From IMG/VR virus record IMGVR_UViG_3300042894_008610: DNA of 24,877 bases; one strand, 5' to 3'. The translations under genes and the position numbers were made by a program. Below, piece after piece: positions 20,597 through 23,701 of the stretch. This DNA is from a virus (lineage: Duplodnaviria; Heunggongvirae; Uroviricota; Caudoviricetes). Numbering within the stretch: the first letter of the stretch is position 1; each line of letters starts with the position of its first letter. The notes under the pieces are model-generated. The model did no database searches. It had not been told where the DNA came from and was given only the letters and a program-made list of their open reading frames with translations.

Positions 20597-21560
20597 TTAA
20601 ATTTCTATCAATATCTTTAAATAAATTTGATAAATCATACTCACCATTATTATCTACCATCGATATACTTTTAACAGATAAAGAGTCTAAACCAATATCA
20701 ATAATTTTATTTTTATTCAATTGATATTCTTTAACCACACCGTCAACATTAATTTTAATATTTTGTGATTCAAGAAAATCATAAAAATAAAATCTAAGAT
20801 TAGATGAGACATCTTTTTCAACTTTTTCGTCACCTTCAGATACCCAACAAGTTGTTGGTTGGTTTTTACTAATATACATTTTATAATTAGGATTCATAGA
20901 ATAATTGAAAAATCCTCTGTCACCCCAATAATATATTTTATCTCTCACGGGTGTTTTAGATATATTAATTGGGAATAATTGTGTCCACAACAACGCCTGT
21001 CCTTCAGCAACTCCATCCCATTTTAAATAATCATCTAATTTTATGACATCAACAATCTTACTCATTATTTCTCTATCAAATATCATAAAATGTAATGTAC
21101 AATCCCACCAATCATCTTCTTTGTTTGGGTTTATTCTTGGGTGAACTAAATTAGTTACGTCAGATTTTATTGTATCAATAACATATTGGTCTATCTCCAA
21201 ATCATATATTATATGATAAAAATAATCGTAATCATAACTGAGAGCAATTTGACTCATTTTCTTTATTTGATATAACCCAGCCCAACCATAATCCGCAACA
21301 TTTCTATGCATAGTTATCCAACCCTCACTTGAATAATGTGTCTGCCAAAATGTAAAACCTCGTAAAGGCCAATTTAATAATGGATTTTCTTTAGTGAAAA
21401 ACACAAAATCAGAAATTTCTATAATTTCATTAGGTAATGTTATTGGACTAATCACTAAAGTATCTAATCCTAAACTTTTCAACACTTTAATGTTTTCACT
21501 TAAAATGTTAATTTTTTCTTGTGTATCGCAATAAGAACTTATTAAAACTATTTTTTTCAT
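20580..21560 (-). CDS. Putative GT-A-fold glycosyltransferase with degenerate DxD (326 aa)
   Basis: N-terminal beta-alpha-beta (IVLISSY...TLVIS) and YGWAGLYQIKKMSQIALSYDYDYFYHIIYDLEID, resembling the GT2-like segment before the DxD. Glyco-cluster context. Confidence 0.45.
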   Translation of the reverse strand: MKKIVLISSYCDTQEKINILSENIKVLKSLGLDTLVISPITLPNEIIEISDFVFFTKENPLLNWPLRGFTFWQTHYSSEGWITMHRNVADYGWAGLYQIKKMSQIALSYDYDYFYHIIYDLEIDQYVIDTIKSDVTNLVHPRINPNKEDDWWDCTLHFMIFDREIMSKIVDVIKLDDYLKWDGVAEGQALLWTQLFPINISKTPVRDKIYYWGDRGFFNYSMNPNYKMYISKNQPTTCWVSEGDEKVEKDVSSNLRFYFYDFLESQNIKINVDGVVKEYQLNKNKIIDIGLDSLSVKSISMVDNNGEYDLSNLFKDIDRNLIYLGY

Positions 21561-23701
21561 AACATTTCTTTGAATCTATACTCTCTATCTTTTTCTTTAA
21601 TTTCTTCAACATCCATTTTAGTTAAAATTATACAATTTTTAAAATAAGTTATTGAAGATATTAGGTTATTATTTCTCATTCCACTAAACTCGGAATTAAT
21701 TTTATGGGGTACCGTTGAAAAGTAATCAACAACATTGTGATTTCCAACCTCATATCCATATATGGTATTTTTCGGATTCCAATAATTACATTCAATATCT
21801 TCAATAATATAGATACCACCATTTTTTAACATTTTATCAAATAAAAAATTAAAGGTGTTGATTTGGTGTTCAGGTACATGGCTACCATCATCAATTATTA
21901 TATCACATTCTCCAATAAGATTTATCATTTTTTGTAAATCATCTTCATTATTTTGGTCGCCTTTGAATACAGTTCCATTATCGGTAACTTTTTCTTCATT
22001 AATATCCATTGAGAAGATTTGTCCGTTGTGAAAATATTCTTTCCACAAGTTGAAAGATGCATAATCTGACCCACATCCTATTTCAAATAGTTTAACTTTG
22101 GTTTCTCTTAAACCACTTAAAAATTTATCATAAATCTTGTCAAACCTATGATGAATAACTTTATCAGTATTATGTTTCAAACCAAGTGAAAAAATATTGT
22201 TATTTCTTACCAAGACAAGATTATTATCGTTGTGTGTCCAAGCCAAACTTATAAGTTCAAACGAAAAATTTTTATACTTATTTCTTAGTTTGGGTATCTC
22301 TTTTTCCCAACTACCTAAATCAGATTCACAAATATCCTCAATAATATAATAACCACCTGAACTTAATCTATCTAATGAATTTTCTAAAAAAAATAAATTA
22401 TATTTGAATTCGTGTAAACCGTCGTCAATAATAATATCCATTTTTTCACCAATTTCTAACCATAAATTTTTTATATCAGAAATTGACGTTTCATCACAAT
22501 AAAACGTTTTAATTCTTTCCTCTTCAAATAAAGTATTTTTATCTATATCGGCACCATATATCTTAGCTCGAGTAAAATATTCTTTCCAACCTCTAAGAGA
22601 AGCCCCAGGAGTACCCATATTACCCATATTGTAAGGTATCAAAACATTATTGGTTCCAATACCTAATTCAAAAATTTTTATTTCTTTATCTCTAATACTT
22701 TCAAAAAGTTGTGAATATAATCTAGTATAATTGTGACCACCAAAATCAACCCAATCAGGTTTACTAGCTTTATCACTCTTGTGTTTATCCATGATAGAAC
22801 ACAACTCTGTTCTTTCATCAATTACGACTTGTTTGATTTCTTTGGGTGAAATAACTAAATCAACTAAATGGTCAATAACATCTTTAAATTTACTATAAGG
22901 TCTACAACAATTTACATCTATGTAATAACCATTTTTTAATTTTTCTTCATCATAAATTCCAAATTTTTTTTGATTTTCTTTCTCACCTTCAAATTCTAAT
23001 TCAACAGGAAAATTATGTCTTTCGATTCTTCTATTCGCAATCCATGGACTAGTGTAACCTCTTTTTAATTTATGAACTTCAATACCATGATTTTTATTAT
23101 TCACACAATCAGAAAAATAAAATTCATCAATCATCCACATATATCTATAACCTGGTTTATAATTTCCATGTCTATTTACAAAATCTTCAAAACTACAATC
23201 AGTATCCAATATTTTATTAAATACCTTTCCTTTAGCGGCGTTATATGGATAATTATACATTTCTTGAGTAAATGGAAAAGGTTCAGTTTCAAAAAGTTTT
23301 TTTGCTTCTAACCTATTTAAATCATAAGCATCACTTGAGTAAATTACTAAACTATTATCACTGAAGTTTTTAATTTGATTTATAAAATATTCTTTATTAA
23401 TCATTAACATGTCTAAATCACATGTTAAACAAACCTCGTCAGGAAAATACTTTGTCCCATACATTCTAGCAATACATGCTAATAAACCTGTATGAACAAC
23501 ATTACCTGTAATGTGGTCGTTAACTTTTTTAATTTTTTTTACTAAACCATTACCATCATAATAAAAGTCACTTTCTTCATCACATATAAAAAAAAGTACA
23601 GGTTCTATTTCTAAAATCTCTTTACAAATTTTAGCTTGGATAGGCCAAAACTCCAAAAAATATGAGTCGTCGACCCCAAATATTGCTTTATCTATTTTCA
23701 T
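21557..23701 (-). CDS. Fusion protein (714 aa): putative GT-A glycosyltransferase plus two tandem class I SAM-dependent sugar O-methyltransferases (MycE/ElmM-like)
   Basis: aa 1-285: CLTCDLDML (DxD), WMIDEFYF, YYIDVNCCRPY. MT1: DK...HNYTRLY...IFELGIG...WKEYF...YGADID...DIIIDDGLH...GGYYIIEDI. MT2: TDKVIHHRF...LFEIGCG...WKEYF...SMDIN...DIIIDDGSH...GGIYIIEDI. Confidence 0.75.
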   Translation of the reverse strand: MKIDKAIFGVDDSYFLEFWPIQAKICKEILEIEPVLFFICDEESDFYYDGNGLVKKIKKVNDHITGNVVHTGLLACIARMYGTKYFPDEVCLTCDLDMLMINKEYFINQIKNFSDNSLVIYSSDAYDLNRLEAKKLFETEPFPFTQEMYNYPYNAAKGKVFNKILDTDCSFEDFVNRHGNYKPGYRYMWMIDEFYFSDCVNNKNHGIEVHKLKRGYTSPWIANRRIERHNFPVELEFEGEKENQKKFGIYDEEKLKNGYYIDVNCCRPYSKFKDVIDHLVDLVISPKEIKQVVIDERTELCSIMDKHKSDKASKPDWVDFGGHNYTRLYSQLFESIRDKEIKIFELGIGTNNVLIPYNMGNMGTPGASLRGWKEYFTRAKIYGADIDKNTLFEEERIKTFYCDETSISDIKNLWLEIGEKMDIIIDDGLHEFKYNLFFLENSLDRLSSGGYYIIEDICESDLGSWEKEIPKLRNKYKNFSFELISLAWTHNDNNLVLVRNNNIFSLGLKHNTDKVIHHRFDKIYDKFLSGLRETKVKLFEIGCGSDYASFNLWKEYFHNGQIFSMDINEEKVTDNGTVFKGDQNNEDDLQKMINLIGECDIIIDDGSHVPEHQINTFNFLFDKMLKNGGIYIIEDIECNYWNPKNTIYGYEVGNHNVVDYFSTVPHKINSEFSGMRNNNLISSITYFKNCIILTKMDVEEIKEKDREYRFKEML

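What the first reader, a model, noticed from the sequence alone, without database searches (positions are those of the whole stretch)
21557..23701. Three-domain GT-methyltransferase-methyltransferase fusion resembling a sugar add-and-cap assembly line
Seen: one ORF joins a DxD GT-A-like domain to two divergent copies of a methyltransferase with the DIIIDDG[L/S]H and GGxYIIEDI motifs. Established: those motifs typify MycE/ElmM-type sugar O-methyltransferases, and chlorovirus PBCV-1 A064R is a multidomain GT/methyltransferase that builds and methylates a capsid glycan. Inference: a bacteriophage analogue that transfers a sugar and O-methylates two different hydroxyls, possibly as a chain-terminating cap.
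Basis: partly seen in the sequence, partly recalled or inferred. Interest (0 to 1): 0.75.

Follow-up and report, generated by a model that had tools for sequence, protein, structure and literature searches.

The report
Phage sugar-adding, double-methylating fusion enzyme
An uncultured lake phage makes one 714-residue protein that joins a sugar-attaching domain to two sugar-methylating domains, and it most likely helps finish sugar chains that the phage puts on its own threonine/proline-rich proteins; it is a real, intact gene and a new variant of a known kind of enzyme.

Summary

- **N-terminal domain (aa 1-285).** It folds with high confidence (pLDDT 95) into a GT-A glycosyltransferase fold (Z 9-12 to about 30 solved GT-A enzymes). 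Its DxD motif is invariant. It matches no Pfam or NCBIfam model.
- **Methyltransferase domains (aa 295-505 and 509-714).** Both align to MycE/TylE (E 1e-12 to 1e-18). Both keep the SAM-binding, metal-binding and catalytic-His motifs, which are invariant across 33 and 47 homologues.
- **Not an assembly artefact.** The identical protein occurs on contigs from at least 4 samples. Contigs from lake runs of 2016, 2020 and 2024 bridge both domain junctions. Ten further clusters (60-95% identity) share the architecture.

New findings:
- The GT-A domain is the constant part of a large, virus-centred family. It is fused to interchangeable methyltransferase cassettes.
- The upstream gene is a stand-alone paralogue of the GT-A domain, and the downstream gene is another GT-A-like protein.
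- The same phage encodes ADP-heptose enzymes and a GT1 fused to a TibC-like protein O-heptosyltransferase.
- In Microcystis phage Mel-JY01 an MT2-type domain is fused to such a TibC-like enzyme.
- Four Thr/Pro-rich proteins lie just downstream.

Best reading: a tailoring enzyme of a phage protein O-glycan. The sugar, the acceptor and the "cap" role are untested. First-reader notes of this scan recorded the same protein on other DNA (e1-5387378, e1-5412447).

The parts
21557..23701 (-). Whole ORF, 714 aa: GT-A domain, MycE-like MT1, MycE-like MT2
   Evidence: Identical protein on contigs from at least 4 samples. 10 homologous clusters with the same architecture at 60-95% identity and 100% coverage.
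22847..23701 (-). N-terminal GT-A glycosyltransferase domain (aa 1-285). DxD is D95/D97 (nt 23405-23422 covers CDLDML). Invariant D192-E193. D262-x-N264 sits where most relatives have D-x-H.
   Evidence: AF2 pLDDT 95.1. VIA Z 11.9 CHSY3, 11.6 KfiA, 10.9 LgtC and B3GalT5, 10.2 PBCV-1 A64R. Foldseek. Invariant columns. H/N count. No Pfam or NCBIfam hit.
22187..22819 (-). MT1, MycE/TylE-type SAM- and metal-dependent O-methyltransferase core (aa 295-505). Motifs: FELGIG 344-349, DDGLH 426-430, ED 455-456.
   Evidence: 8ia9 E 6.7e-16, 3ssm E 6.6e-12. Motifs invariant in 33 MT1-type domains. Positions.
21560..22177 (-). MT2, second MycE/TylE-type O-methyltransferase core with a C-terminal extension (aa 509-714). 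Motifs: FEIGCG 539-544, DDGSH 604-608, ED 634-635.
   Evidence: 8ia9 E 1.9e-18, 3ssm E 1.2e-17. Pfam Methyltransf_24/31. phrog_21658. Motifs invariant in 47 MT2-type domains. 48% identical to aa 646-853 of the Mel-JY01 GT1-MT-TibC fusion.
23713..24549 (-). Stand-alone paralogue (278 aa) of the GT-A domain, 11 nt upstream of the fusion gene
   Evidence: hhalign probability 100%, 52% identity to the N domain. Spacer read.
20580..21560 (-). 326-aa protein whose start overlaps the stop of the fusion gene by 4 nt: GT-A / NDP-sugar-transferase fold (aa 1-215, YDLEID motif) plus a C-terminal beta-sandwich. Always directly downstream of the GT-MT gene in relatives.
   Evidence: AF2 pLDDT 83. VIA Z 14.0 to mannosylglycerate synthase 2bo4, mixed with nucleotidyltransferases. 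Synteny. C-terminal extension on the L010 orthologue (599 aa), read by eye as FkbM-like and not scanned.
24536..24874 (-). C-terminal part of a hexapeptide-repeat O-acetyltransferase (the gene runs off the window)
   Evidence: Pfam Hexapep. NCBIfam Vat/CatB-like, below cut-offs. Full gene of 184 aa in L023/L024.
16989..20115 (-). Nucleotide-sugar and tailoring genes: HldA-like kinase (16989-17774), HldC-like adenylyltransferase (17749-18174), cupin (18147-18539), sulfotransferase-like 250 aa (18540-19292), HldD-like epimerase (19294-20115)
   Evidence: NCBIfam rfaE_dom_I 2.7e-32, rfaE_dom_II 1.1e-24, heptose_epim 5.4e-57, all below the equivalog cut-offs. Pfam. The sulfotransferase assignment is only an ESM-Atlas lead.
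9005..16660 (-). Four adjacent proteins (663, 215, 535 and 1126 aa) with long Thr/Pro-rich (TPTxT)n linkers: candidate O-glycosylation acceptors
   Evidence: Composition scan: Thr 15-21%; Ser/Thr/Pro-rich (STP) stretches of 44 to 179 residues. No signal peptide; only one borderline hydrophobic stretch, in the 1126-aa protein. No relatives among cultured phages for the 1126-aa protein. Virion association is not shown.
20162..20563 (+). SET-domain protein gene embedded in the cluster; conserved there in relatives
   Evidence: Pfam SET 2.6e-15. Present in L001, L002, L005, L008, L010 and L014.

Best explanation
The gene encodes a soluble, cytoplasmic, trifunctional glycan-tailoring enzyme of an uncultured T4-like lake phage. 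SHOWN: it has a GT-A fold domain with a canonical DxD motif. It has two MycE/TylE-type methyltransferase cores, each with an intact SAM site (ExGxG), intact metal ligands and the catalytic His (DDGxH...ED). The fusion is real and conserved. The gene sits in a tightly packed run of glycan genes. The same phage encodes ADP-heptose enzymes and a GT1 fused to a TibC-like protein O-heptosyltransferase. INFERRED mechanism, in four steps: (1) HldA-, HldC- and HldD-like enzymes make ADP-heptose. (2) The TibC-like enzyme puts heptose on Ser/Thr of target proteins in the cytoplasm. (3) GT1 and the GT-A enzymes extend the chain; these are the 278-aa paralogue, this protein's N domain and the 326-aa protein. 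(4) After the N domain has transferred its sugar from a nucleotide sugar through a metal-bound DxD site, MT1 and MT2 each methylate one hydroxyl. They would use the MycE mechanism: Mg2+ chelates the vicinal diol and His acts as base. The order would be sequential, as with MycE then MycF, or A064R-D3 then A061L. The likeliest acceptors are the Thr/Pro-rich proteins encoded immediately downstream. Relatives keep the GT domain and swap the methyltransferase cassettes, so the methylation pattern appears to be the variable part of the glycan.
For: Fold and motifs: GT-A; both MT domains catalytically complete and conserved. The MycE mechanism (Mg2+, His base, MycE 2'-O then MycF 3'-O) is taken from PMC9539859. 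Real fusion. Modular family: N-MT2, N-MT1-MT2, N-MT1 plus a Methyltransf_24-type domain, N-FkbM; also fusions to RfbT-like, GT11, GT2 and GT25 domains. Operon-like packing with two further GT-A-like genes. All cluster enzymes lack TM segments and signal peptides. ADP-heptose genes. GT1-TibC-like gene about 3.6 kb from the fusion gene on a contig that carries the identical protein: E 5.5e-38 over TibC residues 17-376 of 406, including the Cys-rich C-terminal region; the L001 orthologue scores 2.7e-43. TibC is a protein heptosyltransferase that uses ADP-heptose (PMC4358343). Rosetta-stone link: Microcystis phage Mel-JY01 fuses GT1, an MT2-type domain (48% identity) and a TibC-like domain (E 1.2e-68) in one 1226-aa protein. 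Thr/Pro-rich proteins lie directly downstream here and in L010-L012.
Against: No activity, donor sugar or acceptor is shown. The near-invariant His of the family's D-x-H-x-x-R-P motif is Asn in this copy and its closest MT-fused relatives; its role is unknown. Several relatives with the same cluster have no Thr/Pro-rich ORF within 10 kb (L002, L008, L013). The Thr/Pro-rich proteins are not shown to be virion proteins. The NCBIfam heptose hits are below the equivalog cut-offs, and GmhA and GmhB were not found in the window. The MT domains lack MycE's N-terminal auxiliary domain. Mg-dependent class I O-methyltransferases also act on non-sugar diols.
Confidence: 0.6

Rival explanations
1. The same enzyme chemistry, but the product is a host cell-surface glycan (LPS, capsule or S-layer glycan) remodelled during infection, for example to block superinfection, rather than a phage protein.
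For: Heptose and methylated terminal sugars are typical of LPS and O-antigen. Some family members are fused to RfbT-like FkbM domains. Some relatives lack Thr/Pro-rich ORFs nearby.
Against: The cluster has no polyprenyl-phosphate transferase, flippase, polymerase, ligase or ABC transporter, and no membrane protein at all. The heptosyltransferase present is TibC-like (protein-specific), not WaaC/WaaF-like. The cluster sits beside large Thr/Pro-rich proteins.
Confidence: 0.13
2. An iterative add-and-methylate polymerase. The GT and MT domains alternate to build a poly-O-methylated homopolymer, as in mycobacterial methylmannose polysaccharide synthesis, rather than a single terminal cap. This comparison rests on my own knowledge, not on a paper read here.
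For: The GT and MTs are held in one polypeptide. A second GT paralogue lies next door.
Against: The number and type of MT cassettes vary freely between close relatives while the GT stays constant. That fits tailoring better than an obligatory polymerisation cycle. No evidence for processivity.
Confidence: 0.07
3. The N domain is not a Leloir glycosyltransferase. It could be a sugar-1-phosphate (Stealth/CpsY-like) transferase, a nucleotidyltransferase, or a non-catalytic acceptor-binding scaffold for the two methyltransferases.
For: CpsY (8j2n) has one of the highest query TM-scores among the Foldseek rows shown (0.49). GNPT and nucleotidyltransferases appear at Z 8-8.8. His is replaced by Asn at position 264.
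Against: All of the top 30 VIA rows are glycosyltransferases (Z 9.1-11.9), above the phosphotransferases and nucleotidyltransferases. The DxD motif is invariant. No Stealth Pfam match. Stand-alone members of about 250-280 aa are common, so the domain works without MTs.
Confidence: 0.07
4. Only one methyltransferase domain is active; the other is a degenerate structural duplicate.
For: The domains are only 32-33% identical. Pfam scores MT1 below its thresholds.
Against: ExGxG, the acidic loop, DDGxH and ED are invariant or nearly so in 33 MT1-type and 47 MT2-type domains. MT1 matches TylE at E 6.7e-16. MT1-type domains also occur without MT2.
Confidence: 0.05

Closest known systems
PBCV-1 (chlorovirus) A064R with A061L
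   Same: A virus-encoded multidomain enzyme with an N-terminal GT-A DxD domain and a C-terminal SAM methyltransferase. It builds and methylates the end of a glycan on a viral protein. Two methyl groups go on sequentially (O-2, then O-3 of the terminal rhamnose) (PMC9614988).
   Different: The architecture is GT-GT-MT plus a separate second methyltransferase; here it is GT-MT-MT. The fold match to A064R domain 1 (2p6w) is generic (Z 10.2, 9% identity). The host is eukaryotic and the glycan is N-linked.
MycE / TylE (with MycF / TylF), macrolide deoxysugar O-methyltransferases
   Same: Both MT domains align to the catalytic cores of 3ssm and 8ia9, with ExGxG, DDGxH and ED conserved. The enzymes are Mg2+-dependent with a His base. 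Two enzymes methylate neighbouring hydroxyls of one sugar in a fixed order (PMC9539859).
   Different: The N-terminal auxiliary domain of MycE is absent: alignments start at chain residues 165-196. Here the cores are fused in tandem to a glycosyltransferase. The substrate is presumably a protein-linked glycan, not a macrolide.
Microcystis phage Mel-JY01 1226-aa protein (PP395634.1, annotated 'methyltransferase FkbM')
   Same: A cultured-phage protein whose aa 646-853 are 48% identical to MT2 over the whole domain. It is part of a multidomain glycan enzyme encoded next to an annotated structural protein.
   Different: Its partners are GT1 and a TibC-like heptosyltransferase (E 1.2e-68), not the GT-A domain. 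It has one methyltransferase domain only. It is uncharacterised.
TibC/Aah bacterial autotransporter heptosyltransferases (BAHT)
   Same: The same phage encodes a TibC-like domain (E 5.5e-38) together with ADP-heptose enzymes. BAHTs O-heptosylate proteins in the cytoplasm (PMC4358343).
   Different: This concerns the neighbouring gene, not the finding itself. The phage version is fused to a GT1 domain, and the presumed acceptors are Thr/Pro-rich phage proteins, not autotransporters.
Mycobacteriophage glycosyltransferase plus methyltransferase gene pairs (e.g. McProf gp43/gp44)
   Same: The McProf region annotated 'methyltransferase | glycosyltransferase' matches the MT part of the query at about 32% identity (E 1e-11, two pieces over aa 288-640). 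gp44 scores weakly on Methyltransf_24 and lies right after a glycosyltransferase, gp43. From my own knowledge, mycobacteriophage virions are glycosylated by such genes (Freeman et al. 2023, PMID 37329881; the paper was not held).
   Different: They are separate genes, with one methyltransferase. The glycosyltransferase is GT2-like and unrelated to the N domain here.

Membership tests
GT-A fold nucleotide-sugar glycosyltransferases | Single Rossmann-like alpha/beta/alpha domain of GT-A topology | tested here: met
   AF2 pLDDT 95.1, pTM 0.92. All of the top 30 VIA rows are GT-A enzymes, Z 9.1-11.9 with 166-236 aligned residues. 99 Foldseek PDB matches at E<=1e-3.
GT-A fold nucleotide-sugar glycosyltransferases | DxD metal/nucleotide-binding motif after the central beta-strand | tested here: met
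   D95-L-D97 lies between strands 90-93 and 98-100 of the model. Invariant in 33 and 45 sequences.
GT-A fold nucleotide-sugar glycosyltransferases | Glycosyl transfer from an NDP-sugar | not testable with these tools
   Needs an enzyme assay.
Any catalogued GT sequence family (Pfam GT2, GT8, GT25, GT31, Stealth and others) | Significant match to the family's HMM | tested here: not met
   No Pfam or NCBIfam hit on aa 1-285 at E<=1. A profile of 33 sequences found no PDB sequence at E<0.07. Of 45 distant relatives, none was named through this domain; the GT hits there came from extra fused domains. CAZy itself was not searched.
MycE/TylE-type SAM- and metal-dependent sugar O-methyltransferases | Class I SAM-binding core with the ExGxG motif | tested here: met
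   FELGIG (344-349) and FEIGCG (539-544) are aligned to the 8ia9/3ssm motif. E and both G are invariant in both clades.
MycE/TylE-type SAM- and metal-dependent sugar O-methyltransferases | Metal ligands and catalytic His (DDGSH ... ED in MycE) | tested here: met
   DDGLH/ED in MT1 and DDGSH/ED in MT2 align column for column with 3ssm and 8ia9. They are invariant or nearly so in 33 and 47 domains. The roles of the residues come from PMC9539859 and my own knowledge of the MycE structure.
MycE/TylE-type SAM- and metal-dependent sugar O-methyltransferases | N-terminal auxiliary domain that builds the tetramer and the substrate pocket | tested here: not met
   Alignments begin at chain residues 165-196 of the 397-419-residue chains. 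Each module here is only about 205-210 aa.
MycE/TylE-type SAM- and metal-dependent sugar O-methyltransferases | O-methylation of a sugar hydroxyl | not testable with these tools
   Inferred from homology and the glycan-gene context only.
A064R-like viral multidomain glycan enzymes | GT-A domain 1, second GT domain, C-terminal MT | tested here: not met
   The architecture here is GT-MT-MT. The fold match to 2p6w is generic. A064R's architecture is taken from PMC9614988.

The most novel reading that the evidence does not exclude
A virus-restricted, uncatalogued GT-A family (about 1,800 clusters at 50% identity) finishes heptose-initiated O-glycans that phages build on their own mucin-like proteins with a TibC-type protein heptosyltransferase. 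The interchangeable methyltransferase cassettes fused to the GT write a variable methyl 'cap code' on the virion surface. That would be a complete, phage-encoded protein O-glycosylation system outside the actinobacteriophages, with combinatorial methylation as its diversifying element.
Probability: 0.3. Interest if true: 0.75.

Novelty: new variant of a known kind. Interest (0 to 1): 0.55.

Why it matters
Virus-encoded glycosylation of viral proteins is well documented for giant viruses. From my own knowledge, among phages it has been shown only for mycobacteriophages. This gene is a clean entry point to a much larger, unnamed set of phage enzymes:

- It defines a GT-A family with no Pfam or NCBIfam model (CAZy was not searched).
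- It shows that the GT domain is the fixed partner of swappable sugar-methyltransferase cassettes.
- Through the neighbouring TibC-like gene and the Mel-JY01 fusion, it links MycE-type methylation to cytoplasmic protein heptosylation.

If confirmed, methylated and therefore glycosidase-resistant, more hydrophobic glycan ends on phage fibres could affect adsorption, particle stickiness and recognition by grazers or by host defences in lakes. The enzyme would also be a compact one-polypeptide tool for adding and double-methylating a sugar.

Tried and rejected
- **Assembly artefact: rejected.** The exact protein is indexed in 51 blocks, and 17 contigs from at least 4 samples were read. 19 lake runs hold at least 98% of the sampled words. 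Contigs bridge both junctions with no indels. The 'goes back 884' joint is only the paralogy between the N domain and the 278-aa gene at the end of the laid stretch.
- **Plus-strand reading: rejected.** It is full of stops.
- **Megablast of the whole window against cultured phages:** no match.
- **N domain against cultured phages:** tblastn found only one uncultured huge-phage record.
- **The 722-aa and 1126-aa proteins against cultured phages:** no match, so their virion role stays unproven.
- **PDB sequence profile search for the N domain:** nothing meaningful.
- **Whole-genome search:** not possible, because no genome is held.
- **Pattern scan of 185,579 species genomes:** a single locus on a MAG contig. 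The scan uses only two peptide patterns, so this is weak evidence that the family is absent from cells.
- **T4-type late promoter TATAAATA:** 4 matches against 4.1 expected. Not pursued.
- **DUF402 and DUF1031 Pfam hits:** below the cut-offs, ignored.
- **Retaining or inverting stereochemistry, and the nearest GT clan (GT31-like versus GT8-like):** could not be decided. Model coordinates and residue-level structural alignments were not available.
- **Freeman et al. 2023:** could not be read.
- **RNA evidence:** one 151-nt contig in a lake metatranscriptome. Too weak to claim transcription.
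Full report
**1. Observation**

The interval 21557-23701 holds one ORF of 714 aa, on the minus strand. The plus strand there is full of stops.
- CDLDML at aa 94-99.
- IIDDGLH at 424-430 with IIEDIC at 453-458.
- IIDDGSH at 602-608 with IIEDIE at 632-637.

The proposed domain borders (1-285, 295-505, 510-714) coincide with the places where homologues of other architectures gain or lose modules.

**2. The three domains**

*Methyltransferases.*
- MT2 (aa 509-640) aligns to a demethylmacrocin O-methyltransferase (8ia9, E 1.9e-18) and to MycE (3ssm, 1.2e-17).
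- MT1, searched alone, hits the same two chains (6.7e-16 and 6.6e-12) and nothing else of note.
- In both alignments the ExGxG SAM loop, the DDG(S/L)H segment and the later ED pair line up with the enzymes' own residues. A review of methyltransferases describes MycE as Mg2+-dependent with a His general base, and as acting before MycF on the neighbouring hydroxyl (PMC9539859).
- In an alignment of 33 MT1-type and 47 MT2-type domains from metagenomic homologues, these residues are invariant or nearly so in each clade. Both domains are therefore under selection for catalysis.
- The two domains are only 32-33% identical to each other. MT1-type and MT2-type domains each occur without the other. MT1 is thus an added cassette, not a recent internal duplication.
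- Neither domain has MycE's N-terminal auxiliary domain.

*N domain.*
- It has no Pfam, NCBIfam, PHROG or PDB-sequence match.
- With an alignment of 33 stand-alone relatives, AlphaFold2 gave a model of pLDDT 95.1 and pTM 0.92.
- A full scan of 48,161 PDB representatives put only GT-A glycosyltransferases in the top 30. Examples: CHSY3 Z 11.9, KfiA 11.6, B3GalT5 and LgtC 10.9, glycogenin 10.4, PBCV-1 A64R 10.2.
- Foldseek agreed for the PDB (B3GNT2, LgtC, BoGT6a). It also agreed for viral models (GT8-like proteins of phages and giant viruses).
- D95 and D97 lie at the canonical DxD position between strands 90-93 and 98-100. D95 and D97 are invariant in the 33 relatives, and the equivalent aspartates are invariant in 45 more distant ones. 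D192-E193 are also invariant in the 33.
- One caveat: the family's near-invariant His in D-x-H-x-x-R-P is Asn (N264) here and throughout the closest MT-fused clade.
- I could not decide whether the enzyme is retaining or inverting.

**3. The fusion is real**

- Ten further protein clusters at 60-95% identity cover 100% of the query with the same three modules.
- The identical protein is indexed in 51 blocks, and the contigs read came from at least four samples.
- Nineteen lake-water metagenome runs from 2016-2024 hold at least 98% of the sampled words.
- One 2024 contig spans 21400-23890 without a difference. Contigs from 2016 and 2020 runs bridge both domain junctions.

**4. The family**

- A profile search of 1.84 billion representatives found 1,778 relatives of the N domain (387 at E<1e-30). 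Among the 150 best, most are stand-alone proteins of about 250 aa.
- In the closer set, the N domain is the constant N-terminal module. Its partners vary:
  - MT2 alone (about 500 aa, the commonest form).
  - MT1 + MT2.
  - MT1 plus a Methyltransf_24-type domain.
  - MT1 plus an FkbM domain (up to 1,134 aa).
  - Methyltransf_24 alone.
  - FkbM alone, including RfbT-like forms.
  - More rarely GT11, GT2 or GT25 domains.
- A pattern scan of 185,579 species genomes found one locus, on a MAG contig. IMG/VR gave 14 loci.
- Among cultured phages, only one uncultured huge-phage record has the domain.
- The family is therefore centred on viruses, although the genome scan is a limited test.

**5. Context**

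The terminase of a syntenic relative is distantly T4-like. It is closest to huge phages, Sphingomonas phage PAU, and Tenacibaculum and Flavobacterium phages. Neighbouring proteins carry SprB and CHU_C domains. A Bacteroidota host is likely but not shown.

The gene sits in a tightly packed minus-strand run. In transcription order:
- A hexapeptide acetyltransferase.
- A 278-aa stand-alone paralogue of the N domain (52% identity, hhalign probability 100%).
- The fusion gene.
- A 326-aa protein whose start overlaps the fusion's stop. This protein always follows the GT-MT gene in relatives. It models as a GT-A / NDP-sugar-transferase fold plus a beta-sandwich. Its L010 orthologue carries a C-terminal extension that I read by eye as FkbM-like; I did not scan it.
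- Further on: a SET-domain gene on the opposite strand, an HldD-like epimerase, a sulfotransferase-like protein (Atlas lead only), a cupin, and HldC- and HldA-like enzymes.
- Then four proteins with long (TPTxT)n linkers (Thr 15-21%).

None of the enzymes has a TM segment or signal peptide.

**6. What the glycan is attached to**

- Contigs carrying the identical protein extend beyond the window. About 3.6 kb from the fusion gene lies a 763-aa protein. Its C-terminal half matches the E. coli protein heptosyltransferase TibC at E 5.5e-38, over residues 17-376 of 406, including the Cys-rich C-terminal region. The orthologue in L001 scores 2.7e-43.
- TibC and its relatives O-heptosylate autotransporter proteins with ADP-heptose (PMC4358343).
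- In the cultured Microcystis phage Mel-JY01, a 1226-aa protein fuses three modules: a GT1 domain, a domain 48% identical to MT2 over its whole length, and a TibC-like domain (E 1.2e-68). This Rosetta-stone fusion places the MT2-type methyltransferase in the protein-heptosylation pathway.

Four lines of evidence favour a cytoplasmic protein O-glycan over a lipid-linked polysaccharide:
- the TibC-like gene and the Mel-JY01 fusion above;
- the ADP-heptose genes;
- the absence of any lipid-carrier machinery;
- the adjacent Thr/Pro-rich proteins.

Three points remain open. The acceptor is not shown. The Thr/Pro-rich proteins are not shown to be virion parts. Some relatives lack such ORFs within 10 kb.

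**7. Mechanism proposed**

The N domain transfers one sugar through its metal-bound DxD site onto a growing O-glycan. MT1 and MT2 then each methylate one hydroxyl by the MycE mechanism, probably in a fixed order. This parallels MycE/MycF, and A064R-D3/A061L of PBCV-1 (PMC9614988). Close relatives keep the GT and vary the methyltransferases, so the methylation pattern looks like the evolving feature. Whether methylation terminates the chain is untested.

**8. Comparison and novelty**

- Multidomain GT/MT enzymes are known (A064R), and so are GT plus MT gene pairs in phages.
- Four features were not found described in the searches made: the uncatalogued virus-centred GT-A family; the tandem of two MycE-type cores fused to it; the cassette swapping; and the link to a TibC-type protein heptosyltransferase.
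- I rate it a new variant of a known kind.
- First-reader notes of this scan had already recorded the same protein and its paralogy on other DNA, and a TibC-like island in a relative. I reached the paralogue, the GT-A fold of the 326-aa protein and the TibC link from my own searches before reading those notes. The Thr/Pro-rich proteins I checked after note e1-5373135 pointed to them.

Noticed in passing
window 20162-20563 (+): A SET-domain protein gene (Pfam 2.6e-15) sits inside the glycan cluster on the opposite strand. It is kept there in all syntenic relatives examined (L001, L002, L005, L008, L010, L014). A phage SET-domain protein, presumably a lysine methyltransferase, tied to a glycosylation island is unexplained.
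   Followed up: partly
L021:3141-5432 (-), same phage, just outside the window's right end: A 763-aa fusion of a GT1 domain with a TibC-like protein O-heptosyltransferase (E 5.5e-38 to 4rap, Cys-rich C-terminal region kept). An FkbM methyltransferase lies beside it.
   Followed up: yes
window 9005-16660 (-): Four adjacent proteins (663, 215, 535, 1126 aa) are built of modules separated by long (TPTxT)n linkers, often preceded by a CxxC pair. The 663-aa one has SprB repeats. No relatives of the 1126-aa one in cultured phages.
   Followed up: partly
window 20580-21560 (-): The 326-aa protein has a GT-A-like fold with YDLEID in place of a plain DxD, plus a C-terminal beta-sandwich. Its orthologue in L010 (599 aa) carries a C-terminal extension that looks FkbM-like by eye (not scanned). 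A distant paralogue (328 aa; 29% identity over the first 69 aa) lies at L021:6708-7694.
   Followed up: yes
window 22895-22918 (aa 262-269 of the fusion): In the motif D-x-H-x-x-R-P-Y, the His is kept in 111 of 120 stand-alone members. It is Asn in the window protein and in 83 MT-fused relatives, a clade-specific conserved change of unknown meaning.
   Followed up: partly
L019:4066-7746 (Microcystis phage Mel-JY01, PP395634.1): The protein annotated 'methyltransferase FkbM' is really a GT1 + MycE-like methyltransferase + TibC-like heptosyltransferase fusion. It lies next to a Ser-rich (18%) annotated structural protein.
   Followed up: partly
window 16989-20115 (-): HldA-like kinase and HldC-like adenylyltransferase are separate genes rather than a fused HldE, and an HldD-like epimerase is present. 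No GmhA or GmhB was recognised in the window. A cupin and a sulfotransferase-like protein (ESM-Atlas lead only) are interleaved.
   Followed up: partly
window 24536-24874 (-): The hexapeptide acetyltransferase fragment scores best against Vat/CatB-type xenobiotic O-acetyltransferase models, far below their cut-offs. In this context it is more likely a sugar O-acetyltransferase.
   Followed up: no
window 21833-21983: A 151-nt contig identical to the MT2 region occurs in a lake metatranscriptome library (run X20). This is a weak hint of transcription and could be carried-over DNA.
   Followed up: no
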